Below, in pieces: positions 1 through 50,934 of a stretch of DNA of 64,000 nt. Within the stretch, counting starts at the first letter, position 1; every line of letters starts with the position of its first letter. The position numbers were made by a program, and so were the translations under genes. Source of the DNA: Escherichia coli (lineage in GTDB: Bacteria; Pseudomonadota; Gammaproteobacteria; Enterobacterales; Enterobacteriaceae). Location: the NCBI RefSeq assembly GCF_003334305.1, contig NZ_QOWS01000009.1. One strand, 5' to 3'. The notes below the pieces were generated by a model. The model saw only the letters and a program-made list of their open reading frames with translations, made no database searches and was not told where the DNA came from.

Positions 1-1539
1 CAAATCCGCCATATTCTGGCCCGTCATGAACAGGGCGCGGGATTTATCGCTCAGGGGATGGCGCGCACCGACGGTAAACCGGCGGTCTGTATGGCCTGTA
101 GCGGACCGGGTGCGACTAACCTGGTGACCGCCATTGCCGATGCGCGGCTGGACTCCATCCCGCTGATTTGCATCACCGGTCAGGTTCCCGCCTCGATGAT
201 CGGCACCGACGCCTTCCAGGAAGTGGACACCTACGGCATCTCTATCCCCATCACCAAACACAACTATCTGGTCAGACATATCGAAGAACTCCCGCAGGTC
301 ATGAGCGATGCCTTCCGCATTGCGCAATCAGGCCGCCCAGGCCCGGTGTGGATAGACATTCCTAAGGATGTGCAAACGGCAGTTTTTGAGATTGAAACAC
401 AGCCCGCTATGGCAGAAAAAGCCGCCGCCCCCGCCTTTAGCGAAGAAAGCATTCGTGACGCAGCGGCGATGATTAACGCTGCCAAACGCCCGGTGCTTTA
501 TCTGGGCGGCGGTGTGATCAATGCGCCCGCACGGGTGCGTGAACTGGCGGAGAAAGCGCAACTGCCTACCACCATGACTTTAATGGCGCTGGGCATGTTG
601 CCAAAAGCGCATCCGTTGTCGCTGGGTATGCTGGGGATGCACGGCGTGCGCAGCACCAACTATATTTTGCAGGAGGCGGATTTGTTGATAGTGCTCGGTG
701 CGCGTTTTGATGACCGGGCGATTGGCAAAACCGAGCAGTTCTGTCCGAATGCCAAAATTATTCATGTCGATATCGATCGCGCAGAGCTGGGTAAAATCAA
801 GCAGCCGCATGTGGCGATTCAGGCGGATGTTGATGACGTGCTGGCGCAATTGATCCCGCAGGTGGAAGCGCAACCGCGTGCAGAGTGGCACCAGTTGGTA
901 GCGGATTTGCAGCGCGAATTCCCGTGTCCAATCCCGAAAGCGTGCGATCCATTAAGCCATTACGGCCTGATCAACGCCGTTGCCGCCTGTGTCGATGACA
1001 ATGCGATTATCACCACCGATGTGGGTCAGCATCAGATGTGGACCGCGCAAGCTTATCCGCTCAATCGCCCACGCCAGTGGCTGACCTCCGGTGGGCTGGG
1101 CACGATGGGTTTTGGCCTGCCTGCGGCGATTGGCGCGGCGCTGGCGAACCCGGATCGCAAAGTGTTGTGTTTCTCCGGCGACGGCAGCCTGATGATGAAT
1201 ATTCAGGAGATGGCGACCGCCAGTGAAAATCAGCTGGATGTCAAAATCATTCTGATGAACAACGAAGCGCTGGGGCTGGTGCATCAGCAACAGAGTCTGT
1301 TCTACGAGCAAGGCGTTTTTGCCGCCACCTATCCGGGCAAAATCAACTTTATGCAGATTGCCGCCGGATTCGGCCTCGAAACCTGTGATTTGAATAACGA
1401 AGCCGATCCGCAGGCTGCATTGCAGGAAATCATCAATCGCCCTGGCCCGGCGCTGATCCATGTGCGCATTGATGCCGAAGAAAAAGTTTACCCGATGGTG
1501 CCGCCAGGTGCGGCGAATACTGAAATGGTGGGGGAATAA
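1..1539 (+). CDS. ilvB: Acetolactate synthase I large subunit, 5'-truncated by window edge (C-terminal ~513 aa present)
   Basis: Open frame from position 1 in the frame of ORF 58..1539; TPP-enzyme motifs (GDGS..MNIQE); immediately followed by a 96-aa small subunit. Confidence 0.93.
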   Translation, partial: QIRHILARHEQGAGFIAQGMARTDGKPAVCMACSGPGATNLVTAIADARLDSIPLICITGQVPASMIGTDAFQEVDTYGISIPITKHNYLVRHIEELPQVMSDAFRIAQSGRPGPVWIDIPKDVQTAVFEIETQPAMAEKAAAPAFSEESIRDAAAMINAAKRPVLYLGGGVINAPARVRELAEKAQLPTTMTLMALGMLPKAHPLSLGMLGMHGVRSTNYILQEADLLIVLGARFDDRAIGKTEQFCPNAKIIHVDIDRAELGKIKQPHVAIQADVDDVLAQLIPQVEAQPRAEWHQLVADLQREFPCPIPKACDPLSHYGLINAVAACVDDNAIITTDVGQHQMWTAQAYPLNRPRQWLTSGGLGTMGFGLPAAIGAALANPDRKVLCFSGDGSLMMNIQEMATASENQLDVKIILMNNEALGLVHQQQSLFYEQGVFAATYPGKINFMQIAAGFGLETCDLNNEADPQAALQEIINRPGPALIHVRIDAEEKVYPMVPPGAANTEMVGE

Positions 1540-1542
1540 GCC

Positions 1543-1833
1543 ATGCAAAACACAACTCATAACAACGTAATTCTGGAGCTCACCGTTCGCAACCATCCGG
1601 GCGTAATGACCCACGTTTGTGGCCTTTTTGCCCGCCGCGCTTTTAACGTTGAAGGCATTCTTTGTCTGCCGATTCAGGACAGCGACAAAAGCCATATCTG
1701 GCTACTGGTCAATGACGACCAGCGTCTGGAGCAGATGATAAGCCAAATCGATAAGCTGGAAGATGTCGTGAAAGTGCAGCGTAATCAGTCCGATCCGACG
1801 ATGTTTAACAAGATCGCGGTGTTTTTTCAGTAA
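1543..1833 (+). CDS. ilvN: Acetolactate synthase I small (regulatory) subunit
   Basis: 96-aa ORF 4 nt after ilvB stop; sequence [40 protein letters not shown] matches IlvN. Confidence 0.95.
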
Positions 1834-1855
1834 CCGCTCAAGGCTTGAACAACAT

Positions 1856-1889
1856 CGCGCTTATCGTTAAGGTAAGCGCGTTTTTTTTT
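1856..1889 (+). terminator. Rho-independent terminator of ilvBN
   Basis: Inverted repeat CGCGCTTA-N9-TAAGCGCG followed by a T9 run, 23 nt after ilvN stop. Confidence 0.65.
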
Positions 1890-1907
1890 ACCCGCCAGGA
1901 CAAGACC

Positions 1908-2498
1908 ATGATCACCGTTGCCCTTATAGACGATCACCTCATCGTCCGCTCCGGCTTTGCGCAGCTGCTGGGGCTGGAACCTGATTTGCAGGTAGTTGCC
2001 GAGTTTGGTTCGGGGCGCGAGGCGCTGGCGGGGCTGCCGGGGCGCGGTGTGCAGGTGTGTATTTGCGATATCTCCATGCCCGATATCTCCGGTCTGGAAC
2101 TGCTAAGCCAGCTGCCGAAAGGTATGGCGACAATAATGCTCTCTGTTCATGACAGTCCGGCGCTGGTTGAGCAGGCGCTTAACGCGGGGGCGCGCGGCTT
2201 TCTCTCCAAACGCTGTAGCCCTGACGAACTGATTGCGGCGGTGCATACGGTTGCTACGGGCGGCTGTTATCTGACGCCGGATATTGCCATTAAACTGGCA
2301 TCCGGTCGTCAGGACCCGCTGACCAAACGTGAACGCCAGGTGGCGGAAAAACTGGCGCAAGGAATGGCGGTGAAAGAGATTGCCGCCGAACTGGGCTTGT
2401 CACCGAAAACGGTACACGTCCATCGCGCCAATCTGATGGAAAAACTGGGCGTCAGTAACGACGTAGAACTGGCGCGCCGCATGTTTGATGGCTGGTGA
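1908..2498 (+). CDS. uhpA: Response regulator UhpA (LuxR/NarL family)
   Basis: 196-aa frame from internal ATG ([17 protein letters not shown]...) of ORF 1845..2498; receiver plus HTH domains; AGGA SD upstream. Confidence 0.93.
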
Positions 2499-4000
2499 TG
2501 AAGACGTTGTTCTCCCGCTTAATTACCGTTATTGCCTGCTTTTTTATCTTCTCTGCCGCATGGTTTTGCCTGTGGAGTATCAGCCTGCACCTGGTTGAGC
2601 GCCCTGATATGGCGGTGCTGTTATTTCCGTTTGGTCTGCGGCTAGGGCTAATGCTGCAATGCCCGCGCGGATACTGGCCCGTATTGCTGGGTGCGGAATG
2701 GCTGCTAATTTACTGGCTAACGCAGGCGGTCGGTTTAACCCATTTTCCGTTATTGATGATCGGTAGTTTACTGACGTTACTGCCCGTAGCGCTGATCTCG
2801 CGCTATCGCCATCAGCGTGACTGGCGCACCTTGCTGTTACAGGGGGCGGCGTTAACGGCGGCGGCGTTGTTGCAGTCGCTGCCCTGGCTTTGGCACGGCA
2901 AAGAGTCGTGGAATGCGCTGTTGCTGACTTTAACTGGCGGCCTGACGCTGGCCCCGATATGTCTGGTGTTCTGGCACTATCTCGCCAATAACACCTGGCT
3001 GCCGCTCGGCCCGTCACTGGTTTCTCAACCGATCAACTGGCGCGGGCGGCATCTGGTCTGGTACTTGCTGTTGTTTGTTATTAGTCTCTGGCTCCAGTTG
3101 GGATTGCCGGACGAACTGTCGCGCTTTACGCCATTCTGCCTGGCGCTGCCGATTATCGCGCTGGCCTGGCACTACGGTTGGCAAGGGGCGCTGATCGCGA
3201 CGTTGATGAACGCCATCGCGCTGATCGCCAGTCAAACCTGGCGCGATCATCCGGTGGATTTATTGCTCTCGTTGCTGGTGCAAAGTCTGACAGGGTTGTT
3301 ACTGGGCGCTGGCATCCAGCGGTTGCGTGAACTTAACCAGTCGCTGCAAAAGGAACTGGCGCGCAATCAGCATCTGGCTGAACGGTTGCTGGAAACCGAA
3401 GAGAGCGTGCGTCGTGATGTGGCGCGTGAGCTGCATGATGATATCGGTCAGACCATCACTGCTATTCGTACTCAGGCGGGCATTGTTCAGCGGCTGGCGG
3501 CAGATAACGCCAGCGTGAAGCAGAGCGGGCAGCTCATCGAACAACTATCGCTGGGCGTTTACGACGCGGTGCGCCGTTTGTTGGGTCGGTTACGTCCGCG
3601 CCAGTTGGATGATCTCACCCTGGAGCAGGCCATCCGCTCACTGATGCGGGAAATGGAGCTGGAAGGGCGCGGTATTGTCAGCCATCTCGAATGGCGAATC
3701 GATGAATCAGCATTAAGTGAAAACCAGCGCGTGACGCTGTTTCGTGTCTGCCAGGAAGGGCTGAACAACATTGTGAAACATGCTGATGCCAGCGCGGTCA
3801 CGCTGCAAGGCTGGCAGCAGGATGAACGGTTGATGCTGGTTATTGAAGACGATGGCAGCGGTTTGCCGCCGGGTTCCGGGCAACAAGGTTTTGGCCTCAC
3901 CGGAATGCGCGAGCGCGTAACGGCGCTGGGTGGCACATTACACATTTCCTGTCTGCACGGCACGCGTGTCAGCGTTTCTCTACCTCAACGCTATGTCTAA
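2498..4000 (+). CDS. uhpB: Sensor histidine kinase UhpB
   Basis: 500 aa from ATG overlapping the uhpA stop (ATGA); polytopic N-terminus plus HisKA_3/HATPase C-terminus. Confidence 0.95.
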
Positions 4001-4009
4001 GGTTTGATG

Positions 4010-5329
4010 ATGTTGCCGTTTCTGAAAGCGCCTGCCGATGCGCCATTAATGACTGATAAATATGAAATTGATGCCCGCTATCGCTACTGGCGTCGGCATA
4101 TTCTGCTGACCATCTGGCTGGGTTATGCGCTGTTTTACTTCACGCGGAAAAGTTTTAACGCCGCCGTACCAGAAATCCTTGCTAACGGCGTGCTCAGCCG
4201 TAGCGATATCGGCCTGTTAGCGACCCTGTTTTACATTACCTATGGCGTGTCGAAGTTTGTCTCCGGCATTGTCAGCGATCGCTCAAATGCCCGTTATTTT
4301 ATGGGGATAGGGCTTATCGCCACGGGCATTATCAACATTCTGTTTGGCTTCTCGACGTCGCTATGGGCGTTTGCCGTGCTCTGGGTGCTGAACGCCTTTT
4401 TCCAGGGCTGGGGTTCACCGGTGTGTGCGCGTCTGTTAACGGCCTGGTATTCACGTACCGAGCGCGGCGGTTGGTGGGCATTATGGAACACGGCGCATAA
4501 CGTCGGCGGCGCACTCATTCCCATTGTGATGGCAGCGGCTGCACTACATTACGGCTGGCGTGCCGGGATGATGATTGCTGGTTGTATGGCGATCGTCGTG
4601 GGAATTTTTCTCTGCTGGCGGCTGCGCGATCGCCCGCAGGCGTTAGGTTTACCGGCGGTCGGTGAATGGCGACACGACGCGCTGGAGATAGCTCAACAAC
4701 AAGAAGGGGCAGGGCTGACGCGTAAAGAGATCCTCACCAAATATGTGTTGCTGAATCCGTATATCTGGCTGCTTTCGTTTTGCTATGTGCTGGTCTATGT
4801 GGTCCGGGCGGCAATCAACGACTGGGGCAATTTGTATATGTCCGAGACGCTGGGCGTCGATCTGGTCACGGCGAATACGGCAGTGACGATGTTTGAACTG
4901 GGCGGATTTATCGGTGCGCTGGTAGCCGGTTGGGGCTCGGACAAATTGTTTAACGGCAACCGTGGGCCGATGAATTTGATTTTCGCCGCCGGAATTTTGC
5001 TTTCAGTCGGCTCGCTGTGGCTGATGCCATTTGCCAGCTACGTGATGCAGGCAACCTGCTTCTTCACCATTGGTTTTTTTGTCTTTGGCCCGCAGATGTT
5101 AATCGGCATGGCGGCGGCAGAGTGTTCCCACAAAGAGGCGGCAGGGGCGGCGACGGGGTTTGTCGGCTTGTTTGCTTATCTGGGGGCGTCGCTTGCTGGT
5201 TGGCCGCTGGCGAAAGTACTCGATACCTGGCACTGGAGCGGATTTTTTGTGGTTATCTCTATCGCCGCCGGGATTTCCGCACTGCTGTTACTGCCCTTTT
5301 TGAACGCCCAGGCACCGCGCGAAGCGTGA
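4010..5329 (+). CDS. uhpC: MFS membrane sensor UhpC (glucose-6-phosphate receptor)
   Basis: 439 aa from second ATG (MLPFLKAPADAPL...); organophosphate:Pi antiporter family; ORF track gives 4004..5329 from an upstream TTG. Confidence 0.93.
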   Translation: MLPFLKAPADAPLMTDKYEIDARYRYWRRHILLTIWLGYALFYFTRKSFNAAVPEILANGVLSRSDIGLLATLFYITYGVSKFVSGIVSDRSNARYFMGIGLIATGIINILFGFSTSLWAFAVLWVLNAFFQGWGSPVCARLLTAWYSRTERGGWWALWNTAHNVGGALIPIVMAAAALHYGWRAGMMIAGCMAIVVGIFLCWRLRDRPQALGLPAVGEWRHDALEIAQQQEGAGLTRKEILTKYVLLNPYIWLLSFCYVLVYVVRAAINDWGNLYMSETLGVDLVTANTAVTMFELGGFIGALVAGWGSDKLFNGNRGPMNLIFAAGILLSVGSLWLMPFASYVMQATCFFTIGFFVFGPQMLIGMAAAECSHKEAAGAATGFVGLFAYLGASLAGWPLAKVLDTWHWSGFFVVISIAAGISALLLLPFLNAQAPREA

Positions 5330-5349
5330 TGCATCTCACCTTTTCACTT

Positions 5350-5440
5350 CATATCCGGCAAAACTAAGAAATTTTCCAGGTTTTGCCTGGACGCTATCTC
5401 AGGCCTGATTTGCTGCTGATTTTTACAATGCATGCCTCAC
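5350..5440 (+). promoter_or_regulatory. uhpT promoter region with candidate UhpA-binding dyad and -10 element
   Basis: Perfect dyad TCCAGG-N5-CCTGGA at 5375..5391 and TACAAT at 5424..5429, about 38 nt upstream of the uhpT ATG; assignment to UhpA binding is from known uhpT regulation, not proven here. Confidence 0.45.
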
Positions 5441-5466
5441 GCAGGTATTCATTTCAGGAGTAACCC

Positions 5467-6858
5467 ATGCTGGCTTTCTTAAACCAGGTTCGCAAGCCGA
5501 CCCTGGACCTTCCGCTCGAAGTGCGGCGCAAAATGTGGTTCAAACCGTTCATGCAATCCTACCTGGTGGTCTTTATCGGCTACCTGACGATGTACCTGAT
5601 TCGCAAGAACTTTAACATCGCGCAGAACGACATGATTTCGACCTACGGGTTGAGCATGACGCAACTGGGGATGATCGGCCTGGGTTTCTCCATCACTTAT
5701 GGCGTGGGTAAAACGCTGGTTTCCTACTACGCCGACGGCAAAAACACCAAACAATTCCTGCCGTTTATGCTTATCCTGTCTGCCATTTGTATGCTGGGCT
5801 TCAGTGCCAGTATGGGCAGCGGCTCGGTTAGCCTGTTCCTGATGATTGCCTTCTACGCCTTAAGCGGCTTTTTCCAGAGTACCGGCGGTTCGTGCAGTTA
5901 CTCCACCATCACCAAATGGACGCCGCGTCGTAAACGCGGGACATTCCTCGGTTTCTGGAATATTTCTCACAACCTTGGCGGTGCAGGCGCAGCAGGTGTG
6001 GCGCTGTTCGGGGCAAATTACCTGTTCGATGGCCATGTCATCGGCATGTTTATCTTCCCGTCGATTATCGCGCTGATTGTCGGTTTTATCGGCCTGCGTT
6101 ACGGTAGCGACTCCCCGGAATCTTATGGCCTCGGCAAAGCTGAAGAACTGTTCGGCGAGGAGATCAGCGAAGAGGACAAAGAGACAGAATCTACCGATAT
6201 GACCAAGTGGCAGATCTTTGTTGAGTATGTGCTGAAAAACAAAGTGATCTGGCTGCTGTGCTTCGCCAACATTTTCCTCTATGTGGTACGTATTGGTATC
6301 GACCAGTGGTCAACCGTATACGCGTTCCAGGAACTGAAACTCTCTAAAGCGGTGGCGATTCAGGGCTTTACGCTGTTTGAAGCTGGTGCGCTGGTCGGTA
6401 CGCTGCTGTGGGGCTGGCTCTCTGACCTGGCGAACGGTCGCCGTGGCCTGGTGGCCTGCATCGCGCTGGCGTTGATTATCGCCACGCTCGGTGTGTATCA
6501 ACATGCCAGCAACGAATATATCTATCTGGCTTCTCTCTTTGCGTTGGGTTTCCTGGTCTTTGGCCCGCAATTGTTGATTGGTGTGGCTGCTGTTGGCTTT
6601 GTACCTAAAAAAGCGATTGGCGCTGCCGATGGTATTAAAGGCACCTTTGCTTACCTGATTGGTGACAGCTTTGCCAAGTTAGGTCTGGGAATGATTGCCG
6701 ATGGGACGCCGGTATTCGGCCTTACCGGCTGGGCAGGCACATTCGCCGCACTTGATATCGCCGCGATTGGTTGTATCTGCCTGATGGCGATAGTGGCGGT
6801 GATGGAAGAACGCAAAATCCGCCGCGAGAAAAAAATTCAGCAGTTGACAGTGGCATAA
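5467..6858 (+). CDS. uhpT: Hexose-6-phosphate:phosphate antiporter UhpT
   Basis: 463-aa MFS protein, [33 protein letters not shown]...; SD AGGAG upstream. Confidence 0.97.
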
Positions 6859-6876
6859 ACGTAACTGGTGACTTTT

Positions 6877-6904
6877 GCCCGGCATGACGCCGGGCTTTTT
6901 TATT
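6877..6904. terminator. Bidirectional rho-independent terminator between convergent uhpT and ade
   Basis: GCCCGGC-atgac-GCCGGGC hairpin followed by TTTTTTATT; A-run on the other strand. Confidence 0.7.
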
Positions 6905-8669
6905 ATTCCGTGACTTCCAGCGTAGTGAAGGCAAACTTCTCGCCATCAAATAGCCCCTGACTGGTTAGTTTTAGCGCGGGGATCACTGGCAGAGAAAGAA
7001 ACGCCATCTGAATAAACGGCTCATCGGGTAACGGACCGCATTCACGGGCGGCGGCTTTCAAGGCGTCAATCTGTTCCGCCAGCGACTGCGCCGTGTCGGT
7101 GCTCATCAGGCCGGCAATGGGCAACGGCAGATGACTTTGGACCTGGCCGTTACGTACCACGCACAGCCCGCCGCCATCCTGAATCACCTGATTGACCGCC
7201 AGCGCCATCTCTTCGGCACTGCGACCGATCACCACAATATTATGGCTGTCATGGCTGACCGTCGCAGCCAGCGCACCTTCATTCAGTCCAAAGCCGCCAA
7301 GCAAACCACAAGCCGGAGCCAGCCGTTGCCCGTAACGCTCAAGTACGGCAATAAAGCTCACATCATCGCGATCAAAACCATTTTCGCTGTAGACGCTGGA
7401 GTGGGAGTGCGTAATCAATTCGTTATGGATGACGTCAATGACCCGATAGCGTTTTCCGGGCGTAAATTGCAGGGCAAAGTCGCTGGCGGAAACTGGCTGG
7501 CGGGCAATGGTGTTGCCATATGGCGGAGCGGATTGTGCCAGTCTCGCCGACTCTTCCGCCTGTAAGGTTTGCGCATCAATCGGCTCGCCTTTCACCAGTA
7601 CCTGCTGCACCGTGACCTTACGCGCATCGCTCAACAGGACGATATCGGCCTGCTTGCCGGGTGCCAGTAAGCCGAGGTGATTCAGACCAAAGTGGCGCGC
7701 CGTCGACCAGCTGGCGACGCGATATGCCACATGCAGCGGCACATTGTGTTGTTCGATCAGGCGGCGAATTAAGGCATCGATGTGTCCTTCATGGGCGATC
7801 TCCCACGGGTTACGGTCATCGGTACAGAGCATGCATTGCGGGCTGTTAAATTCGTTGATCAACGGTGCCAGCGCGTTGAGATTGCGGGCAGCGGACCCTT
7901 CGCGGATCATCAACGACATGCCGAGTTGTAATTTCCGGCGTCCTTCTTCCAGCTGATAACTTTCGTGGCAGTTTTCAATACCCGCAGTAATATAGGCGTT
8001 AAGTTCTTTACCACCCAAACCCGGGCAGTGACCGTCCAGCGTCAGGTGGCGAAATGCATCCAGTTTATCGAGCAGCGCATTCTGCCCGCTAATTACGCCA
8101 GGGTAGTCCATCATTTCTGCAAGGCCGGTAACCTGCGGATGGTCCCGCCAGGCGAGCATCTGTTCAAGGGTAAAACTGGCACCGTTAACATCGCAGCCTT
8201 CCAGGGCGGGTACGCAAGAGCTGACCTGTAAGTACTGGTTTTGCCTTGCCTGTTCGGCACAGCGGGCAAACCAGGCGAATCCGGCTTCTCCCATCACGTT
8301 GACGATTTCATGAGGGTCGCAAATAACGGTCGTCAGGCCGCGCGGCAGGGTAGCGGTTTCAAAAGTGACCGGCGTCATCATGCTGGATTCAATATGCAGG
8401 TGAGCATCAATAAACCCTGGCACCGCCGTTGCGCCGCGAGCATCAATCCGCTGCAAAGCCGGAGCATCAGCGTATTCTGCGCCAACACCGGCAATGTAAC
8501 GTCCTTTAATCACAATTGGGCCGGAAATTTCTCCGCCATTGATCAGGTCGAGAATAGAGACATTATCAATAATATAATCGGCAACAGCGTCGCCACGGGA
8601 AACGGCTAACAATTCCTGGTATTCAGCCCGGCTAATGTGATGAAATTTATGGTTAATAGAATTATTCAT
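6903..8669 (-). CDS. ade: Adenine deaminase
   Basis: 588-aa ORF, amidohydrolase metal-binding motifs ([10 protein letters not shown]), matches Ade/YicP. Confidence 0.95.
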
Positions 8670-8843
8670 ATTTTTCTCATTTTAATTTTATCAATTTGAT
8701 TATTATTTATCATAAAGAAACGTCGCGAGATTATTAAAGAATATCCATTAATGTGCAATTGAAATGTGATAATTATCACTGAACCGTTGTTGTCATTTGT
8801 TTTACAAAAGCAAGGGATTAAATCTCCTCCAATGGACAAAAAA

Positions 8844-10178
8844 ATGAATAATGACAATACCGATTACGTGAGTAATGAATCAGGGACGCTTTCGCGATTA
8901 TTTAAACTACCTCAGCATGGGACCACCGTCCGCACAGAATTGATTGCGGGGATGACCACTTTTTTAACCATGGTGTACATCGTTTTTGTGAACCCGCAAA
9001 TCCTCGGCGCGGCACAAATGGACCCGAAAGTGGTGTTTGTTACCACCTGTTTGATTGCCGGTATCGGCAGTATTGCGATGGGGATATTTGCTAACTTACC
9101 CGTGGCGCTGGCTCCGGCAATGGGGCTGAACGCCTTCTTTGCCTTCGTGGTCGTGGGGGCGATGGGCATCTCCTGGCAGACCGGGATGGGCGCAATATTC
9201 TGGGGCGCAGTTGGACTATTTTTGCTCACGCTGTTTCGTATCCGGTACTGGATGATCTCCAACATTCCCTTAAGTTTACGTATTGGTATCACCAGCGGAA
9301 TTGGATTATTTATCGCCTTAATGGGATTAAAAAATACTGGCGTTATTGTCGCCAATAAAGACACGCTGGTGATGATTGGCGATTTAAGTTCTCACGGCGT
9401 GTTGTTAGGTATTTTAGGGTTTTTTATTATAACCGTGTTGTCATCACGTCATTTTCATGCCGCGGTGCTGGTTTCTATTGTGGTGACGTCTTGCTGTGGA
9501 TTATTTTTCGGTGATGTTCATTTTAGCGGCGTCTATTCCATTCCGCCTGATATTAGCGGCGTCATTGGTGAAGTAGATTTGAGCGGCGCGTTAACACTTG
9601 AACTCGCCGGTATCATTTTCTCCTTTATGCTGATCAACCTATTTGATTCATCAGGAACATTAATTGGTGTAACTGATAAAGCGGGCTTAATAGATGGTAA
9701 CGGTAAATTCCCCAATATGAATAAGGCGCTGTATGTTGATAGCGTCAGTTCGGTGGCGGGTGCGTTTATCGGCACCTCGTCTGTTACTGCCTATATTGAA
9801 AGTACTTCTGGTGTGGCAGTCGGTGGCCGCACGGGGCTGACTGCGGTTGTGGTTGGCGTTATGTTCCTGTTGGTTATGTTCTTCTCACCGCTGGTGGCGA
9901 TGGTTCCTCCTTACGCAACCGCCGGAGCGTTAATCTTTGTTGGCGTGCTGATGACTTCGAGCCTGGCGCGCGTTAACTGGGATGATTTTACCGAATCGGT
10001 GCCTGCGTTTATTACCACGGTGATGATGCCCTTTACTTTCTCGATCACCGAAGGGATTGCACTCGGCTTTATGTCGTACTGCATCATGAAAGTGTGCACC
10101 GGGCGCTGGCGCGATCTGAACCTGTGTGTGGTGGTGGTCGCAGCTCTGTTTGCACTGAAGATTATTCTGGTGGATTAG
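8844..10178 (+). CDS. adeQ: Adenine permease (NCS2/AzgA family)
   Basis: 444 aa from internal ATG (MNNDNTDYVSNESGTL...) of ORF 8766..10178; polytopic transporter. Confidence 0.9.
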   Translation: MNNDNTDYVSNESGTLSRLFKLPQHGTTVRTELIAGMTTFLTMVYIVFVNPQILGAAQMDPKVVFVTTCLIAGIGSIAMGIFANLPVALAPAMGLNAFFAFVVVGAMGISWQTGMGAIFWGAVGLFLLTLFRIRYWMISNIPLSLRIGITSGIGLFIALMGLKNTGVIVANKDTLVMIGDLSSHGVLLGILGFFIITVLSSRHFHAAVLVSIVVTSCCGLFFGDVHFSGVYSIPPDISGVIGEVDLSGALTLELAGIIFSFMLINLFDSSGTLIGVTDKAGLIDGNGKFPNMNKALYVDSVSSVAGAFIGTSSVTAYIESTSGVAVGGRTGLTAVVVGVMFLLVMFFSPLVAMVPPYATAGALIFVGVLMTSSLARVNWDDFTESVPAFITTVMMPFTFSITEGIALGFMSYCIMKVCTGRWRDLNLCVVVVAALFALKIILVD

Positions 10179-10230
10179 TAACTGGCGAGGGTTTCCAGAT
10201 ATCATGAGTTCTGATTACGCAGGAGAACTC

Positions 10231-10683
10231 ATGATCTGGATAATGCTCGCCACGCTGGCAGTGGTGTTTGTGGTTGGTTTTCGGGTGCTGACATCCGGGG
10301 CCAGAAAAGCGATTCGCCGTCTCAGCGATCGGCTGAATATCGATGTCATACCCGTGGAGTCGATGGTCGATCAAATGGGAAAGTCAGCCGGTGACGAATT
10401 TTTACGTTATTTGCATCGTCCGGATGAGTCGCACCTGCAAAACGCCGCGCAGGTGTTGCTCATCTGGCAAATTGTCATTGTCGATGGTAGCGAACAGAAC
10501 CTGCTGCAATGGCATCGGATTTTACAAAAAGCCCGTCTTGCCGCGCCGATTACCGATGCTCAGGTCAGGCTGGCGCTGGGGTTTCTGCGCGAAACCGAAC
10601 CTGAAATGCAGGATATTAATGCTTTTCAGATGCGCTATAACGCGTTCTTTCAGCCTGCCGAGGGCGTTCACTGGCTGCATTAA
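10231..10683 (+). CDS. yicN: DUF1198 family small membrane-anchored protein YicN
   Basis: 150 aa from internal ATG (MIWIMLATLAVVFVV...) of ORF 10204..10683; N-terminal TM helix. Confidence 0.8.
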   Translation: MIWIMLATLAVVFVVGFRVLTSGARKAIRRLSDRLNIDVIPVESMVDQMGKSAGDEFLRYLHRPDESHLQNAAQVLLIWQIVIVDGSEQNLLQWHRILQKARLAAPITDAQVRLALGFLRETEPEMQDINAFQMRYNAFFQPAEGVHWLH

Positions 10684-10689
10684 AACCGC

Positions 10690-10757
10690 TTCGTCTTATC
10701 AGCCTACAGACCGCGCCTGACCTGTCGGGTGGATAAGACGTTCACGCCGCATCCGGT
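10690..10757. repeat. REP/BIME-like extragenic palindromic repeat units
   Basis: cgtcttatcagcctacag and ggataagacgttcacgccgcatccgg resemble the REP consensus (GCCGGATGCGGCGTGAACGCCTTATCC) in opposite orientations. Confidence 0.55.
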
Positions 10758-10893
10758 AATCTTTGCCCTGTTCCGTTTCGATCTTAACTCCAGCTCAAGC
10801 AACACCGTAAAAGTTGCAAAAACGTTAAATGCGTCACACATTTCAATGTTAAAGTGGTCGGCTTTTCCCCTGAAACATGCGACGGGTAACACC

Positions 10894-12084
10894 ATGAGTG
10901 AATTTATTGCCGAAAACCGCGGCGCGGATGCCATCACCCGACCGAACTGGTCAGCCGTTTTCTCGGTGGCGTTTTGTGTCGCCTGTCTGATTATCGTTGA
11001 GTTTTTGCCCGTCAGTTTGTTGACGCCAATGGCCCAGGATTTAGGCATTTCGGAAGGGGTTGCCGGGCAATCGGTGACCGTGACCGCCTTTGTGGCAATG
11101 TTTGCCAGTTTGTTTATTACCCAGACAATTCAGGCCACTGACCGCCGCTACGTTGTTATTTTGTTTGCCGTTTTGCTGACGCTCTCCTGCTTGCTGGTTT
11201 CCTTTGCTAACTCATTCAGTTTGCTTTTAATCGGTCGTGCCTGTCTGGGGCTGGCGCTGGGCGGGTTCTGGGCGATGTCGGCGTCGCTGACCATGCGTCT
11301 GGTACCGCCGCGTACGGTGCCGAAGGCGCTGTCGGTGATCTTCGGCGCGGTTTCTATTGCGCTGGTGATTGCCGCGCCGTTGGGCAGTTTTTTAGGCGAG
11401 CTTATCGGTTGGCGCAATGTCTTTAATGCGGCGGCGGTGATGGGCGTGCTGTGTATTTTCTGGATTATCAAATCATTGCCTTCACTGCCAGGCGAACCCT
11501 CGCATCAGAAACAAAATACTTTCCGCTTATTACAACGTCCGGGTGTGATGGCAGGGATGATCGCCATCTTCATGTCTTTCGCCGGGCAGTTTGCTTTCTT
11601 CACGTATATTCGCCCGGTGTATATGAACCTGGCGGGATTCGGCGTGGATGGCTTAACGCTGGTGCTGTTGAGTTTTGGTATCGCCAGCTTTATTGGTACG
11701 TCGCTTTCGTCGTTCATTCTTAAACGTTCGGTAAAACTGGCCTTAGCAGGCGCGCCGTTAATACTGGCTGTGAGTGCGTTGGTACTGACGTTGTGGGGAA
11801 GCGATAAAATCGTTGCTACCGGCGTGGCGATTATCTGGGGGCTAACTTTTGCATTGGTTCCCGTCGGCTGGTCAACGTGGATCACCCGCTCGCTGGCCGA
11901 TCAGGCAGAAAAAGCCGGGTCTATTCAGGTGGCGGTTATTCAGCTTGCTAATACCTGTGGCGCGGCAATCGGCGGTTATGCGCTGGATAATATTGGTCTG
12001 ACTTCGCCGTTGATGTTGTCCGGCACATTGATGTTGCTGACTGCATTGTTGGTTACTGCAAAGGTGAAAATGAAGAAATCCTGA
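10894..12084 (+). CDS. nepI: Purine ribonucleoside efflux pump NepI (MFS)
   Basis: 396 aa from internal ATG ([20 protein letters not shown]...) of ORF 10729..12084. Confidence 0.9.
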
Positions 12085-12124
12085 TATCAGGTAAAGAAGC
12101 GTTGGTCAGTAGTTGTTGCTGTTC

Positions 12125-12418
12125 TTACATATCCGGGCATTCTACCTTACCCAACGCTTCCCAATAATTGCTCTGATTATTACGTTCCATCGCCACGATG
12201 GCCTCGCGTATATGTTGTTTATTGTTTTCATCTGACAACATTAACTTTTCCCACGCTTCATCTGATAATGACGCCTGTGGCGTGCAAATTTTACGTAAAT
12301 CTTGTAATACCGTGGTTTTCTCTTTTGCGGACTGCAGTGAGCTAAAAGGCGACTCGGCGTATACGATGCCTGGCATAGCGAAAAAAGTGAAAATAAGCAG
12401 TAGTGTCGTTGGTTTCAT
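12125..12418 (-). CDS. yicS: Small periplasmic protein YicS
   Basis: 97 aa with cleavable signal peptide (MKPTTLLLIFTFFAMPGIVYA). Confidence 0.85.
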   Translation of the reverse strand: MKPTTLLLIFTFFAMPGIVYAESPFSSLQSAKEKTTVLQDLRKICTPQASLSDEAWEKLMLSDENNKQHIREAIVAMERNNQSNYWEALGKVECPDM

Positions 12419-12639
12419 GGATTCAACCTTTTACAAATGTGTATCGAATGAAGCATAAGTGTAGTTTGCTTTCATCGCTCTCATCATGCTGTACGAAACG
12501 CGCTTGCGTGGTCAGTAAGAAGTGCCAGACTTTATATTCCACTTTTATTCCTTTTTATTCTTATCGATAGCGTTTCGTTTTTTAAACCGCAGCGACCTTA
12601 CCGCTATAGTCAGGTAATCATTAATAAAAGGATAAAAAA

Positions 12640-13458
12640 ATGAAACTGACAACACATCATCTACGGACAGGGGCCGCATTATTGCTGGCCGGAATTCTGC
12701 TGGCAGGTTGCGACCAGAGTAGCAGCGATGCAAAACACATTAAAGTTGGCGTTATAAATGGCGCAGAACAAGATGTCGCGGAAGTCGCTAAAAAGGTGGC
12801 AAAAGAGAAATATGGCCTCGATGTTGAACTGGTAGGATTTAGCGGTTCGTTGCTACCGAACGATGCGACAAATCATGGCGAACTTGATGCGAATGTCTTC
12901 CAGCATCGACCCTTTCTTGAACAAGATAATCAGGCGCATGGTTATAAACTGGTAGCGGTGGGAAATACGTTTGTCTTCCCTATGGCGGGTTATTCCAAAA
13001 AAATCAAAACCGTGGCGCAAATAAAAGAAGGCGCGACAGTGGCGATCCCCAACGACCCGACCAACCTTGGTCGCGCACTTTTACTGTTGCAAAAAGAGAA
13101 GCTAATTACTCTGAAAGAGGGAAAAGGGTTATTACCTACCGCGCTGGATATAACCGATAATCCTCGTCATTTGCAGATTATGGAACTCGAGGGGGCGCAG
13201 CTTCCGCGCGTACTGGATGATCCCAAAGTTGATGTAGCGATTATCAGCACCACTTACATTCAGCAGACAGGGCTTTCTCCGGTGCACGACAGCGTATTTA
13301 TTGAAGATAAAAATTCGCCGTATGTGAATATTTTGGTGGCACGGGAAGATAATAAGAATGCAGAAAACGTGAAGGAATTTCTGCAATCTTATCAATCATC
13401 CGAAGTCGCTAAAGCGGCAGAAACCATCTTTAACGGTGGCGCGGTGCCTGGCTGGTAA
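12640..13458 (+). CDS. nlpA: Lipoprotein-28 NlpA (methionine-binding lipoprotein family)
   Basis: 272 aa, lipobox LLAGC after signal peptide. Confidence 0.95.
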   Translation: MKLTTHHLRTGAALLLAGILLAGCDQSSSDAKHIKVGVINGAEQDVAEVAKKVAKEKYGLDVELVGFSGSLLPNDATNHGELDANVFQHRPFLEQDNQAHGYKLVAVGNTFVFPMAGYSKKIKTVAQIKEGATVAIPNDPTNLGRALLLLQKEKLITLKEGKGLLPTALDITDNPRHLQIMELEGAQLPRVLDDPKVDVAIISTTYIQQTGLSPVHDSVFIEDKNSPYVNILVAREDNKNAENVKEFLQSYQSSEVAKAAETIFNGGAVPGW

Positions 13459-13461
13459 TTC

Positions 13462-14385
13462 TCACTCATCCCGCGCCGGACGATTTATTTTTCTGGCGCG
13501 GCGACGGGAATCCATTGAAATCAAAATTACCGATGACAGAATCAGCAGCGTTCCCAGCCAGTCCGGTAATGTGAACGTGATCCCCAGCAACAGCAAAGAG
13601 AGTAGCGCGCTACTTAATGGTTCTGCACAGCTCAAAATGCTGGCTTTTGGACCGCCAATTAATTGTGCTCCTTTCAGGTACAGACTAAATGTCAGGGACG
13701 TACCAATGACGATCAAATAAAAAAACGCCAAAATCAAACTGCCGTTAACGACAAAGTTTGTCCCTTGTCTGGCATAAAAAGGCAACAGAATCAGACCGCC
13801 GATCAGCATACTCCAGCCGACGACAGACAACGTGCCATAGCGGGCAATTAGCGTTGAGGGATAGGTGGTATAGAATGCAGCAGCAAATGCCGAGGCAATG
13901 CCCCAGAACAACGCGGCAGGAGAGATCGATAATGACGTCGGATTACCGTGTGTCACCAATAAAAAAGTCCCGACCAGCGATGTCAAAATAGCGCAGAAAA
14001 CCAGAATGCCCGGGCGCGATTTACGCACCAGTGAGAACCAGGCGACGATAATCGTCGGTGAGAGGAATTGCAGCACCGTTGCCGTGGCTGCGTTCGATTT
14101 TTCGATGGTTAGCAAAAAAGTGAGCTGTACAGTTAGCGCGCCAACCACGGAAAAAATCAGCAGGCTAATGGCATCTTTATGATTGTTAATAATAGAAAAG
14201 ATTTTATCGCCATGAACAAATGACAGCGTCAGTAGAATCAAACCGGCGAATATCAAACGCGTCATAGTCAAAAACTGCGACGACATCTGGCTTTGCTCCA
14301 TGATGTATTGCGCGCAGACCCCTGAACTTCCCCACAACACGGCGGCAATCAGAACGTTCAGCATCCCCTTTCTGGTGGAACCCAT
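13462..14385 (-). CDS. yicL: EamA/DMT family transporter YicL
   Basis: 307 aa, 10-TM DMT-type pattern; convergent with nlpA with a 3-nt gap. Confidence 0.9.
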
Positions 14386-14495
14386 TTTTCCCTCTGCATA
14401 CTGTTTTGTCGTTTATGTATGCAGGCATGATAGCAAAAATGGCGAGGATGGCTCTGTTTGCGCCACGCCGATTTTTCTTAGCCCAGACTGGTGAG

Positions 14496-15680
14496 CTAAA
14501 TATCTTTAATAAACAGCAGGCAAATCATCGCAATACCCAACATCCCTATCGCCAGCCAGAACAACGCATGGTAGCTCCAGATTTCAACCATAATTCCGTC
14601 AACAGAGCCGGCGATAATCCAGCCGACGCGTGAAGTATTTGCATATAACGTTGTCGCAGAGCCTATTTTTTCAGGCATCAAGTCCTGAAAATAAAGCATG
14701 CCGATACCACAGAGAATACCAAGGAAGATGGCATTAAGAATTTGCAATTCCAGCTCAACCGCCGGAGTCGTCGCCATGAGTACGCTGGCGTAAAAACACA
14801 TTCCACTCACGATAGCAATGAGCATTAATAGTCGCTTGCCAATATGTTTCATGTAATAGCCTGCGATTAACATCATCGGAATTTCCAGACCGGCAGCGAT
14901 ACCAATCATTTCTCCAGCCAGTTTATCGGTTAGATGCAGTTCATCAATAATAAATAGCGGCATATTTATCATGTAGAGATTATTCGCCGCCCACATCATT
15001 GAACAGACCACAAAAAGTAGCCGCGTATCCCGCTTCCTGTGGGTGGAGGGTAAAATTTCTACGGGTTGGGTAACGACAGGAATATTTCTTTGTATTGATG
15101 GCAAAAACAACCAGACTATCAGTCCGCAAACAACAAATGCGATGGCAGCGGTGAGATACATCACTTTAAAACTAAATCCCATTGCCAGTTCATAAGCGAG
15201 CGGTGGCCCGATAACCCAGGCAAGCGAGATCTGAGCACGTAAAAATGTACTGAACATGACCGTCTCACGGCCTGTTCTGTCGGCGTGTTCACGGGCGAGG
15301 GCGAACATTTGCGGGTTTGCGGTGGAAGCAAAACTACTCAGAAGTACGCCCGTTGAGAGGAGAATGAAGTAGTTGCGATTCCACGCAAAAAGCGTGCAGG
15401 CCAGCACTCCAAATAAGCAACATAGCAGAATCAGTAATTTACGGTCGCCTTGTTTATCGGAGTGCCTTGCCAGAAATTGACTGACCAGAATTCCCATAAT
15501 AGCGCTACCGGTGAAGAAAAAACCTACCATTATAGGACGGGCTTTCAGTTCATCTGCGAGGAATATACTTAGGGTAGGAGTCTGAAGAGCGCCCGCAATA
15601 CCCGTCAGAAAGGCGACAAGTAAAAATGCCGCGGCAGTGAGATCAAGTATTTTTGATGGAGTGGTAGCCGTTTTTTGCAT
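14496..15680 (-). CDS. setC: Sugar efflux transporter SetC (MFS)
   Basis: 394-aa MFS protein; SetA/SetB-like. Confidence 0.88.
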   Translation of the reverse strand: MQKTATTPSKILDLTAAAFLLVAFLTGIAGALQTPTLSIFLADELKARPIMVGFFFTGSAIMGILVSQFLARHSDKQGDRKLLILLCCLFGVLACTLFAWNRNYFILLSTGVLLSSFASTANPQMFALAREHADRTGRETVMFSTFLRAQISLAWVIGPPLAYELAMGFSFKVMYLTAAIAFVVCGLIVWLFLPSIQRNIPVVTQPVEILPSTHRKRDTRLLFVVCSMMWAANNLYMINMPLFIIDELHLTDKLAGEMIGIAAGLEIPMMLIAGYYMKHIGKRLLMLIAIVSGMCFYASVLMATTPAVELELQILNAIFLGILCGIGMLYFQDLMPEKIGSATTLYANTSRVGWIIAGSVDGIMVEIWSYHALFWLAIGMLGIAMICLLFIKDI

Positions 15681-16316
15681 TCTTCTGAATCACCGGGCGA
15701 AAAAATATAACTGAGTTACAAATAAGTACCAGTCGAATGAGTATTGTATTAAGAATTTTTGAGTATCGCTGATACAACCAGAAAGCAATGCTAGCGCAAT
15801 ATTATAGGGCCAGCAATTGAGATTATTAGCAAAAGCATGTTAAGAATTAATTACCGAATTTATATATTAATTATAGTAAGGCAATGAGCTATTTTTGATA
15901 GTAAAAATAAAACAAGTTGATTTGATATATTAAATGAACAAATTAATCTTGATGGCAGTCTGATTATTGGTGAAGTTTATAGTCAGTTTTTTTCGCCAGC
16001 GGTTAAAGAAATAGAATAGTCGTATAAAAAAGGGTGTTCTGGGGCGAGTAAAACAACATCTTCACCTTAATGGCGATACAGTTGGCTGAGAGTCAGCAGG
16101 GGGGCAAATCACCTGCAAATAAACACGGCGCATACTGGCGTGAATATCGCGGATGCGTTCGAGGACAGAAGAACCGACAGGCGGATTCTTCAGCCGCTCA
16201 TCGTCCATCACAAAACCTTAGACCAGGTATTCCTGAAGCCGATTGAATATTGAGCAGTAGAAAATATCTGGATTGACAGTATTACAAGGGGTTGGAGAAC
16301 GTCAGGAGAGGCATTT

Positions 16317-49195: not shown

Positions 49196-49211
49196 AATTG
49201 AGAAAAGTTAA

Positions 49212-50207: not shown

Positions 50208-50216
50208 ATTACTCTT

Positions 50217-50909: not shown

Positions 50910-50934
50910 ACCACACAGTCAAAACGGAACCAAC

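What the first reader, a model, noticed from the sequence alone, without database searches (positions are those of the whole stretch)
8670..8843. AT-rich divergent control region between ade and adeQ
The 174-bp ade/adeQ intergenic region and the first about 80 bp of the adeQ ORF-track frame are strongly AT-rich with long A/T tracts. This fits the reported H-NS silencing of the cryptic adenine deaminase gene in E. coli; the ORF-track start for adeQ (8766) is probably an artefact of this region and the real start is the ATG at 8844.
Basis: partly seen in the sequence, partly recalled or inferred. Interest (0 to 1): 0.2.

Follow-up and report, generated by a model that had tools for sequence, protein, structure and literature searches.

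The report
Known adeD/adeQ divergent control region
This is the already-described AT-rich promoter region shared by the E. coli adenine deaminase and adenine permease genes, and the long upstream "start" of the permease is an ORF-calling artefact that sits inside a CRP binding site.

Summary
Window 8670-8843 is the 174-bp spacer between adeD (6903-8669, minus strand) and adeQ. It is 26.4% G+C in a 50% window, and it is the most AT-rich of 29 spacers in the homologous region of strain H15.

The start-codon claim also holds. RefSeq starts adeQ at 8844 (444 aa). ATG 8844 is kept in all 16 adeD-linked orthologous loci. The extension from GTG 8766 is cut by stop codons in Citrobacter, Kluyvera and Cedecea. 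A start at ATG 8832 is not fully excluded.

GTG 8766 lies inside TGTGA-N6-TCACT (8765-8780). The arms of this palindrome are invariant across genera and its spacer varies. This fits published evidence that CRP binds and activates both genes (PMC8085971).

H-NS silencing and activation by insertion elements are also published (Petersen 2002). I could reach that work only through papers that cite it. My supporting evidence is indirect: spacer segments that have diverged to neutral levels still hold 24-35% G+C, against 60-78% at four-fold sites of the flanking genes.

One part stays unexplained. About 75 bp spanning the adeD leader and first codons (8640-8714) is nearly invariant across genera.

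Verdict: an ordinary, already-known locus of low interest.

The parts
6903..8669 (-). adeD (ade, yicP) adenine deaminase coding sequence, 588 aa.
   Evidence: RefSeq annotation of the identical H15 segment. The NCBIfam equivalog NF007457 matches residues 1-588 of 588 at 1266 bits.
8670..8843 (.). 174-bp AT-rich divergent spacer between adeD and adeQ, 26.4% G+C.
   Evidence: The spacer is 172-178 bp long and 26-30% G+C in Escherichia, Citrobacter, Kluyvera, Cedecea and Pluralibacter.
8640..8714 (-). Block A: a nearly invariant segment covering the adeD leader, ribosome-binding site and first 10 codons. In the consensus it contains TTGAT-TTT-ATCAA-T-TTGAT. Its function is unassigned.
   Evidence: Mean identity to E. 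coli in 8 non-Escherichia genomes is 0.88 for 8670-8714 and 0.83 for 8640-8669. Neutral identity at four-fold sites is 0.40-0.48. There is no Rfam match and no stable RNA fold.
8676..8678 (-). Weak Shine-Dalgarno element GAG for adeD, 6 nt before the ATG.
   Evidence: Invariant TTTCTC in alignment A1. Duplex energy with the 16S rRNA 3' end is -2.7 kcal/mol.
8685..8693 (-). Candidate extended -10 element (TGaTAAAAT) for adeD. The alternative candidate is TATGAT at 8709-8714 with TTAATA at 8732-8737. The transcription start was not determined here.
   Evidence: Promoter scan and conservation profile. Inference only.
8685..8694 (-). Best match (8 of 10) to the H-NS high-affinity motif TCGATAAATT. 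A 7-of-10 match lies at 8704-8713.
   Evidence: 2 matches of at least 8/10 in 8600-8860, where the window-wide rate of 1.3 per kb predicts 0.34.
8762..8783 (.). CRP-type site AAATGTGATAATTATCACTGAA. The core TGTGA-N6-TCACT is at 8765-8780, centred at 8772.5.
   Evidence: It is the best CRP-like 22-mer in the window and the only core match with at most 1 mismatch. Arm identity across genera is 1.00 and spacer identity is 0.60. Its distances to both start codons are conserved. CRP binding by EMSA and crp-dependent expression of adeD and adeQ are reported in PMC8085971.
8766..8843 (+). Spurious 26-codon N-terminal extension of the adeQ ORF-track frame. Its GTG is part of the TGTGA half-site.
   Evidence: The extension is not conserved and is interrupted by stops in other genera. 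It has no Shine-Dalgarno pairing and is not annotated.
8803..8808 (+). Candidate -10 element for adeQ: TACAAA here, TTTAAAA-type in other genera. It would place the start near 8814-8815 and CRP near -41.5 or -42.5 (class II).
   Evidence: A conserved T/A block lies at a fixed distance from the CRP centre in all genera. It matches only 4 of 6 positions and fell below the promoter-scan threshold. Inference only.
8834..8836 (+). Shine-Dalgarno-like GGA within the conserved AATGGA, 7 nt before ATG 8844.
   Evidence: It is nearly invariant in alignment A1 whatever the reading frame. The same GGA spacing occurs in Erwinia and Mangrovibacter orthologs. Duplex energy is -3.0 kcal/mol.
8844..10178 (+). 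adeQ (yicO) adenine permease coding sequence, 444 aa plus stop.
   Evidence: RefSeq and MG1655 annotation. The ATG is conserved in 16 of 16 adeD-linked loci.

Best explanation
Window 8670-8843 is the shared divergent regulatory region of the E. coli adenine deaminase gene adeD (leftward) and the adenine permease gene adeQ (rightward).

A single CRP site centred at 8772.5 serves both promoters. For adeQ it lies about 42 bp upstream of the inferred transcription start, a class II arrangement with a weak -10 element near 8803-8808. For adeD it acts from further upstream, on a fixed helical face.

The whole zone of about 260 bp (roughly 8600-8860) is kept AT-rich. This is the kind of DNA that H-NS coats. 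Published genetics shows that adeD is silent in wild-type E. coli and is switched on by hns mutation or by insertion elements landing in this spacer.

Both genes begin with near-identical weak initiation regions, GA(G/C)AAAAA(T/A)ATGAATAAT. adeQ translation starts at ATG 8844. The GTG at 8766 is only the GTG inside the TGTGA half-site of the CRP box, followed by a chance open frame.

Basis of each step:
- Shown here: composition, conservation pattern, geometry of the site, and non-conservation of the extension.
- Taken from papers: CRP binding and activation, and H-NS/insertion-element control.
- Inferred: promoter classes, transcription starts, and the interplay between CRP and H-NS.
For: Identity of the locus: 100% match to E. 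coli H15 adeD/adeQ; MG1655 adeQ is 444 aa; the adeD equivalog match is full-length.

Composition: 26.4% G+C, in the lowest 0.9% of 174-bp windows and the lowest of 29 spacers.

Selection on composition: the non-conserved spacer segments hold 24-35% G+C in 12 genomes of 6 genera. Four-fold sites of adeD plus adeQ hold 60-78%. Those same segments are at neutral identity, 0.38-0.43 against 0.40-0.48.

CRP site:
- It matches 9 of 10 core positions and is the top-scoring site in the window. The next best site lies upstream of uhpT.
- Arms are invariant and the spacer is variable.
- The centre lies 103.5-104.5 bp from the adeD ATG and 69.5-73.5 bp from the adeQ ATG in 13 of the 14 loci outside Pluralibacter and Enterobacillus; the E. 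albertii type strain has TGTTA in place of TGTGA.
- Pluralibacter differs by exactly 10 bp on the adeD side.
- Enterobacillus has a 222-bp spacer and two sites, one at 102.5 bp from adeD and one at 70.5 bp from adeQ.
- PMC8085971 lists adeD and adeQ as Crp-activated, EMSA-positive promoters.

H-NS and insertion elements: PMC2753651 and PMC13274399 cite Petersen 2002. PMC13274399 also reports insertion elements enriched in this spacer during adenine cross-feeding. Overproduction of TosR raises yicP about 2^4.4-fold, alongside many other genes including fimbrial operons; the authors predict that TosR antagonises H-NS silencing.

Start codon.
Against: No H-NS occupancy data and no transcription-start data could be obtained. 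Petersen 2002, the ChIP supplement and the TSS tables are not held or are truncated.

One CRP core match in 64 kb is no more than chance on its own (1 found, 1.78 expected). Its weight comes from location, conservation and the published EMSA.

The proposed -10 elements are weak (4 of 6), and the scan found no plus-strand promoter.

Matches to the H-NS motif are only modestly enriched, and AA/TT phasing is absent.

The near-invariance of block A (8640-8714) is explained neither by CRP nor by a protein that reads composition.

Natural insertion-element insertions in the spacer are essentially absent: the spacer is intact in 5390 of 5426 genomes.
Confidence: 0.8

Rival explanations
1. AdeQ starts four codons earlier, at ATG 8832 (MDKK-MNND..., 448 aa), not at 8844.
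For: An in-frame ATG lies 3 or 4 codons upstream of ATG(0) in 15 of 16 adeD-linked loci. AAGGGA upstream of 8832 gives a stronger calculated anti-SD duplex than the GGA before 8844 (-5.1 against -3.0 kcal/mol).
Against: The upstream ATG is not conserved in position. A 1-nt indel puts the conserved AATGGA string out of frame in Citrobacter and Pluralibacter, where a different ATG is the in-frame one. This suggests that the string, which carries a GGA, is the conserved feature rather than a start codon. Enterobacillus has no upstream ATG. AAGGGA ends 14 nt before 8832, which is too far, and it is not conserved in other genera. Erwinia and Mangrovibacter orthologs also have GGA 7-8 nt before a start that corresponds to ATG(0) or lies later. 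RefSeq and MG1655 use 8844.
Confidence: 0.15
2. The long form is real: AdeQ is 470 aa and starts at GTG 8766.
For: The frame is open from 8763, and GTG is a legal start. The version suffix of NP_418120.2 shows that the record was revised at some point. From my own recollection, not checked here, the earlier K-12 annotation used a longer form.
Against: Stop codons lie inside the extension in 7 of 9 non-Escherichia loci, and the GTG is lost in E. albertii. There is no Shine-Dalgarno pairing (+0.9 kcal/mol). The 26 residues match no protein family. The GTG lies in a conserved CRP half-site upstream of the likely promoter. Distant orthologs all have short N-termini.
Confidence: 0.02
3. The AT-richness is generic promoter and leader composition (easy melting, unstructured initiation regions, UP-like DNA). 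H-NS plays no specific role.
For: Spacers in general are AT-rich (median 43.8%). The A/T tracts are no longer than composition predicts and are not phased. The most AT-rich parts are the sequence-conserved blocks (15-27% G+C). Matches to the H-NS motif are only modestly enriched.
Against: The spacer is the extreme of 29. Segments that have drifted to neutral identity still hold 24-35% G+C against 60-78% at neutral coding sites. Published genetics attributes the silence of ade to H-NS and its activation to insertion elements. yicP also rises when TosR, which its authors predict antagonises H-NS silencing, is overproduced.
Confidence: 0.08
4. Block A (8640-8714) is the operator or target of a specific, still unidentified regulator of adeD. 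This could be a DNA-binding protein that recognises the TTGAT/ATCAA pentamers, or an sRNA or protein acting on the leader. The gene would then be conditionally regulated rather than simply cryptic. This is compatible with the main explanation.
For: Identity is 0.83-0.88 over about 75 bp, against 0.40-0.48 at neutral sites. There are three alternating TTGAT/ATCAA pentamers. The motif is unique in the window, with 0.01 matches expected by chance. A PlaR gSELEX peak is reported in this spacer.
Against: No known motif was matched. No PlaR box was found with up to 3 mismatches. From my own reading, the 5-3-5 spacing does not fit FNR (5-4-5) or CRP (5-6-5). The RNA is unstructured. Overlapping ordinary constraints (-10 element, start site, ribosome-binding site, first codons, H-NS nucleation) might together explain the conservation.
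Confidence: 0.25

Closest known systems
The E. coli K-12 ade (yicP/adeD) cryptic promoter described by Petersen, Moller and Valentin-Hansen 2002 (J Biol Chem 277:31373). It is silenced by H-NS and activated by insertion elements.
   Same: It is the same locus. The window is 99.6-100% identical to E. coli genomes here, and the MG1655 equivalent is 3,843,790-3,843,963.
   Different: Nothing in kind. This strain carries one private base change at 8684 inside the most conserved block. I could not read the primary paper, so its mapped transcription start and silencer boundaries are not compared.
The Crp regulon assignment of adeD and adeQ by Li et al. 2021 (PMC8085971).
   Same: Both genes are reported as Crp-activated, with EMSA-positive promoter DNA and an in-silico TGTGA-N6-TCACA site. 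The site at 8765-8780 is the only candidate in the spacer.
   Different: Their predicted coordinates (Data S5) are not held, so identity of the site is inferred. The cross-genus conservation and the geometry argument were added here.
The bgl operon control region of E. coli, a CRP-dependent promoter silenced by H-NS and activated by IS1 or IS5 insertion.
   Same: The logic is the same. An AT-rich control region is kept silent by H-NS and relieved by insertion elements or hns mutation (PMC2753651). That the bgl promoter is CRP-dependent is from my own knowledge.
   Different: bgl is a single operon with antitermination control and defined upstream and downstream silencers. Here two divergent genes share one CRP site in a 174-bp spacer, and the silencer boundaries were not determined.
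Class I and class II CRP-dependent promoters (Busby and Ebright 1999, as cited in PMC8085971).
   Same: The site has a 22-bp symmetric form. The inferred spacing is -41.5 or -42.5 for adeQ, and a helical-phase-preserving distance for adeD (a 10-bp difference in Pluralibacter).
   Different: The transcription starts are not mapped here, so the class assignment is an inference.

Membership tests
H-NS-silenced control region (like bgl, proU, ade) | A tract with G+C far below the genome average. | tested here: met
   26.4% against 50%. It is in the lowest 0.9% of windows and is the lowest of 29 spacers.
H-NS-silenced control region (like bgl, proU, ade) | Composition, rather than sequence, is what is maintained. 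| tested here: met
   Segments at neutral identity (0.38-0.43) keep 24-35% G+C in 6 genera, against 60-78% at four-fold sites.
H-NS-silenced control region (like bgl, proU, ade) | High-affinity nucleation motif (TCGATAAATT-like). | tested here: inconclusive
   There are two matches of 8/10 in 261 bp, where the window rate predicts 0.34. This enrichment is what AT-richness alone would tend to give.
H-NS-silenced control region (like bgl, proU, ade) | H-NS occupancy in vivo, and derepression in an hns mutant. | not testable with these tools
   Reported by Petersen 2002 as cited. The primary paper and the ChIP tables are not held.
CRP-activated promoter | A 22-bp site with TGTGA-N6-TCACA. | tested here: met
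   TGTGATAATTATCACT matches 9 of 10 core positions and is the best site in the window.
CRP-activated promoter | Arms conserved and spacer free to vary in orthologous regions. | tested here: met
   Both arms have identity 1.00 and the spacer 0.60 in 8 non-Escherichia genomes.
CRP-activated promoter | Site centred at a permitted position (-41.5, -61.5, -71.5 and so on) relative to the transcription start. | tested here: inconclusive
   The starts are unknown. Distances to both ATGs and to the TTTAAAA block are conserved, and a 10-bp step and a duplicated site preserve the geometry.
CRP-activated promoter | CRP binding in vitro and crp-dependent expression. | not testable with these tools
   Reported for adeD and adeQ in PMC8085971.
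AdeQ, 444-aa form starting at ATG 8844 | Start codon conserved in orthologs. | tested here: met
   An ATG is present at the homologous position in 16 of 16 adeD-linked loci and in Mangrovibacter.
AdeQ, 470-aa form starting at GTG 8766 | Upstream extension open and conserved in orthologs. | tested here: not met
   Stop codons occur within 4-21 codons in 7 non-Escherichia loci. E. albertii lacks the GTG.
AdeQ, 444-aa form starting at ATG 8844 | A Shine-Dalgarno element at proper spacing that discriminates 8844 from 8832. | tested here: inconclusive
   A GGA lies 7 nt upstream (-3.0 kcal/mol). The random-position mean is -2.0 kcal/mol, so the signal is weak.
PlaR (YiaJ) regulatory target | PlaR box ATnTGAAACnnnGTTCAnTT. 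| tested here: not met
   There is no match with up to 3 mismatches in the spacer, although a gSELEX peak is reported there.
Known cis-regulatory RNA (riboswitch or leader) in either 5' UTR | Match to an Rfam covariance model, or a stable fold. | tested here: not met
   There are no matches near the gathering score. The leaders fold no better than shuffles, with z = +1.5 and +0.7.

The most novel reading that the evidence does not exclude
The roughly 75-bp block at 8640-8714 is the target of an unidentified specific regulator, either a protein or an sRNA. The block covers the adeD leader, ribosome-binding site and first codons, and contains alternating TTGAT/ATCAA pentamers. It is nearly invariant from Escherichia to Pluralibacter. 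Such a regulator would conditionally unlock the so-called cryptic adenine deaminase. E. coli ade would then be a regulated gene whose inducing condition has not been found, rather than a silent one.
Probability: 0.2. Interest if true: 0.4.

Novelty: already known. Interest (0 to 1): 0.15.

Why it matters
It matters little beyond annotation hygiene. The result confirms that the 470-aa AdeQ ORF is an artefact and explains where its GTG comes from, namely a CRP half-site. It also ties together two separately published facts about one spacer: H-NS silencing with insertion-element activation, and CRP activation of both genes. The one item with some research value is the deeply conserved adeD leader block. 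If it proved to be a specific operator, it could point to the natural condition under which enterobacteria use adenine deaminase.

Tried and rejected
Literature that could not be reached:
- Petersen 2002, by DOI and by PubMed id.
- Papakostas 2013.
- Supplements of the Kahramanoglou H-NS ChIP-seq paper and Data S5 of Li 2021.
- Transcription-start tables: Thomason 2015 is not held, and the Ettwiller Cappable-seq GTF is truncated before 3.84 Mb.

As a result, the transcription starts and H-NS occupancy remain untested here.

Known RNA element: there is no Rfam match and no fold better than shuffles. Rejected.

PlaR box: no match with up to 3 mismatches in the spacer.

Other copies of the block A motif in the window: none.

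Natural insertion-element insertions in 5,426 E. coli genomes: the spacer is intact in 5,390. The two interrupted cases I inspected are deletions, not activating insertions: an IS1-associated deletion in TBU0218_11-3CC, and one of about 110 bp in ET565.

Phased A-tracts or intrinsic curvature: no periodicity found.

By eye I considered PurR, FNR, Fur, IHF, CytR, RcsB and ARG-box readings of parts of the spacer. None fitted its consensus well, and no motif library was available to test them. None is claimed.

Full report
WHAT THE WINDOW IS

The segment is Escherichia coli chromosome. Window 8300-9300 matches 5,415 of 5,426 complete E. coli genomes and is 100% identical to strain H15. RefSeq annotation of that record gives the order uhpT, adeD (adenine deaminase, window 6903-8669, minus strand), adeQ (adenine permease, window 8844-10178, plus strand), yicN and nepI. 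The MG1655 equivalents are adeD 3,843,964-3,845,730 and adeQ 3,842,455-3,843,789 (NP_418120.2, 444 aa). The adeD product matches the NCBIfam adenine deaminase equivalog end to end.

CHECK OF THE OBSERVATION

The spacer 8670-8843 is 174 bp and 26.4% G+C, in a window of 50.1%. Only 0.86% of 174-bp windows are as low. Among the 29 annotated spacers of at least 50 bp in the homologous 64 kb of H15 it is the lowest; the median is 43.8%. The window is colinear with H15 only at 1-16337 and again from 16315 onward.

The AT-rich zone is wider than the finding states. It covers about 8600-8860, with a minimum of 23% at 8633-8806.

The 'long A/T tracts' are real: 26.8 per kb against 4.1 per kb in the window. 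They are exactly what this composition gives by chance (P about 0.56), and AA/TT dinucleotides are not helically phased.

START OF adeQ

The ORF list gives GTG 8766 (470 aa). RefSeq and MG1655 use ATG 8844.

I fetched 32 loci encoding AdeQ relatives from species-representative genomes. Sixteen loci, counting the window, have adeD divergently adjacent. They come from Escherichia species, Citrobacter, Kluyvera, Cedecea, Pluralibacter and Enterobacillus.
- All 16 have an ATG at the position of 8844.
- The upstream frame is closed after 4 codons in Citrobacter sp. R56 and both Kluyvera, after 12 in Cedecea, after 14 in Enterobacillus, and after 21 in Citrobacter MGH106 and Pluralibacter.
- E. albertii has lost the GTG.

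Erwinia, Pantoea and Mangrovibacter orthologs also begin only 10-24 residues before the conserved RxFKL motif. GTG 8766 has no anti-Shine-Dalgarno pairing (+0.9 kcal/mol). The long form is refuted.

A residual alternative is ATG 8832 (MDKK-M...). An in-frame ATG 3-4 codons upstream recurs in 15 of 16 loci. What is conserved, however, is the string AATGGA regardless of frame: a 1-nt indel shifts it in Citrobacter and Pluralibacter. Enterobacillus has no such ATG. The GGA sits 7 nt before ATG 8844, as it does in distant orthologs. I put 8844 at about 0.8 and 8832 at about 0.15.

The two genes have near-identical initiation regions, GA(G/C)AAAAA(T/A)ATGAATAAT, which appear as an 18-nt inverted repeat.

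WHAT THE SPACER CONTAINS

I aligned 12 spacers (alignment A1). I then scored identity to E. coli in 8 non-Escherichia genomes, using four-fold degenerate sites of adeD and adeQ as the neutral benchmark; these sites show identity of 0.40-0.48. Three kinds of DNA appear.

(i) Neutral segments. Positions 8715-8729, 8784-8799 and 8811-8829 have identity 0.38-0.43.

(ii) A palindrome. TGTGA-N6-TCACT lies at 8765-8780. Both arms are invariant (1.00) and the spacer varies (0.60).

(iii) Block A. Positions 8670-8714 have identity 0.88, and the conservation continues into the first ten adeD codons (8640-8669, 0.83).

THE PALINDROME AS A CRP SITE

It is the best CRP-like 22-mer in the 64 kb. The runner-up lies upstream of uhpT. 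It is also the only core match with at most one mismatch. One such match in 64 kb is not significant by itself, since 1.78 are expected.

Its geometry is conserved:
- The centre lies 103.5-104.5 bp from the adeD ATG and 69.5-73.5 bp from the adeQ ATG in 13 of the 14 loci outside Pluralibacter and Enterobacillus; the E. albertii type strain has TGTTA in place of TGTGA.
- Pluralibacter is exactly 10 bp shorter on the adeD side.
- Enterobacillus has a 222-bp spacer and two sites, one at 102.5 bp from adeD and one at 70.5 bp from adeQ.

This pattern is what one shared site serving two promoters at fixed distances would leave.

The result is not new. Li et al. 2021 list adeD and adeQ as Crp-activated genes whose promoter DNA binds Crp-cAMP in EMSA, with a site predicted in silico (PMC8085971). 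The GTG of the spurious start is the GTG of the TGTGA arm.

A conserved T/A block (TACAAA in E. coli, TTTAAAA elsewhere) lies 31-36 bp from the site centre. It would make adeQ a class II promoter starting near 8814-8815. This is inference: the element matches only 4 of 6 positions, and the scan found no plus-strand promoter.

For adeD there are two candidates:
- TATGAT at 8714-8709, which would place CRP near -70.5.
- The perfectly conserved TGaTAAAAT at 8693-8685, which would place CRP near -94.5.

I could not decide between them.

H-NS

The published claim is that ade is silenced by H-NS and activated by insertion elements (Petersen 2002). I could reach it only through citing papers (PMC2753651; PMC13274399). 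PMC13274399 also reports insertion elements enriched in this spacer when E. coli is fed adenine by a partner. In strain CFT073, overproduction of TosR, which the authors predict antagonises H-NS, raises yicP by log2 4.4, alongside many other genes including several fimbrial operons.

My own contribution is a compositional argument. The neutral-identity segments of the spacer hold 24-35% G+C in all 12 genomes, while four-fold sites of the flanking genes hold 60-78%. AT-richness as such is therefore being maintained. That is expected for DNA read by a protein that senses composition.

Matches to the H-NS motif are modestly enriched: two at 8/10 where 0.34 are expected. None of this proves occupancy.

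WHAT REMAINS UNEXPLAINED

Block A has the consensus TTTCTCATTTTGATTTTATCAATTTGATT on the plus strand. That is TTGAT-TTT-ATCAA-T-TTGAT next to the adeD ribosome-binding site.

It has no Rfam match, no RNA structure, no PlaR box despite a reported PlaR gSELEX peak in this spacer, and no second copy in the window.

Overlapping ordinary constraints may be enough to explain it. These are a promoter -10 element, the start site, the ribosome-binding site, the first codons and H-NS nucleation. A dedicated regulator is not excluded.

The window and strain H15 carry A at 8684, where MG1655, other E. coli and every other genus have G. At most about 90 of 5,391 genomes are identical to the window over 8620-8880.

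VERDICT

The locus and both of its regulatory inputs are already in the literature, so it is ordinary and of low interest. The added points are that the spurious GTG sits in the CRP box, that one CRP site serves both genes with conserved geometry, that AT-richness is selected as composition, and that a deeply conserved adeD leader block has no assigned function.

Noticed in passing
window 8684: The window and strain H15 have A (TTTTAATTTT) at this position. MG1655, four other E. coli or Escherichia genomes and all other genera have G (TTTTGATTTT). The change falls in the first TTGAT pentamer of the most conserved block. On the adeD strand it creates a second TAAAAT hexamer. At most about 90 of 5,391 E. 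coli genomes are identical to the window over 8620-8880.
   Followed up: partly
window 8661-8678 and 8835-8852: An 18-nt inverted repeat with 16 of 18 positions complementary. Both genes carry almost the same initiation region, GA(G/C)AAAAA(T/A)ATGAATAAT, and both proteins begin MNN.
   Followed up: partly
L022 (Enterobacillus tribolii), spacer 2779-3000: The spacer is 222 bp and holds two CRP-like sites (TGTGA-N6-TCAAT) 50 bp apart. One is 102.5 bp from the adeD ATG and the other 70.5 bp from the adeQ ATG. These are the same distances that the single E. coli site has to each gene.
   Followed up: partly
L020 (E. albertii NBRC 107761), about 2920-2935: The left arm of the CRP-like site reads TGTTA instead of TGTGA. 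The same change removes the GTG of the spurious adeQ start.
   Followed up: no
L002 (strain TBU0218_11-3CC) 4199-4977; L036 (strain ET565) about 3199-3203: These are rare natural disruptions. In TBU0218_11-3CC an IS1 element replaces the whole spacer and the 5' parts of adeD and adeQ. In ET565 a deletion of about 110 bp removes the adeQ start. The spacer is otherwise intact in 5,390 of 5,426 genomes.
   Followed up: partly
window 5322-5343: The second-best CRP-like 22-mer in the window (AAGCGTGATGCATCTCACCTTT) lies about 135 bp upstream of the uhpT start. From my own knowledge it is probably the known distal CRP site of the uhpT promoter. This was not checked.
   Followed up: no
window about 6638-6903, plus strand: The MG1655 record annotates a small RNA, UhpU (b4829), in the uhpT 3' region. 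It abuts and overlaps the adeD stop codon on the opposite strand.
   Followed up: no
window 10729-12084 and 10204-10683: The same kind of ORF-track over-extension occurs in two neighbouring genes. The nepI ORF starts at GTG 10729 (451 aa), but RefSeq starts it at 10894 (396 aa). The yicN ORF starts at 10204, but RefSeq starts it at 10231.
   Followed up: no
window about 16315-16337: Relative to strain H15, the window lacks an island of about 10.9 kb next to tRNA-Sec (selC). In H15 that island encodes an integrase, helicase, Psu-like polarity suppression protein, Ogr/Delta-like protein and primase, like a P4-type satellite prophage.
   Followed up: partly
window about 48768-54293: There is a run of several further very AT-rich stretches, down to 22% G+C over 174 bp. 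By homology with H15 these lie in the waa/rfa lipopolysaccharide core gene cluster.
   Followed up: no
L021 (C. amalonaticus AUH_CA_2023_1) and L025 (uncultured Cedecea): The tblastn matches to Ade and/or AdeQ are broken into partial segments. This suggests frameshifts or assembly errors in these copies.
   Followed up: no
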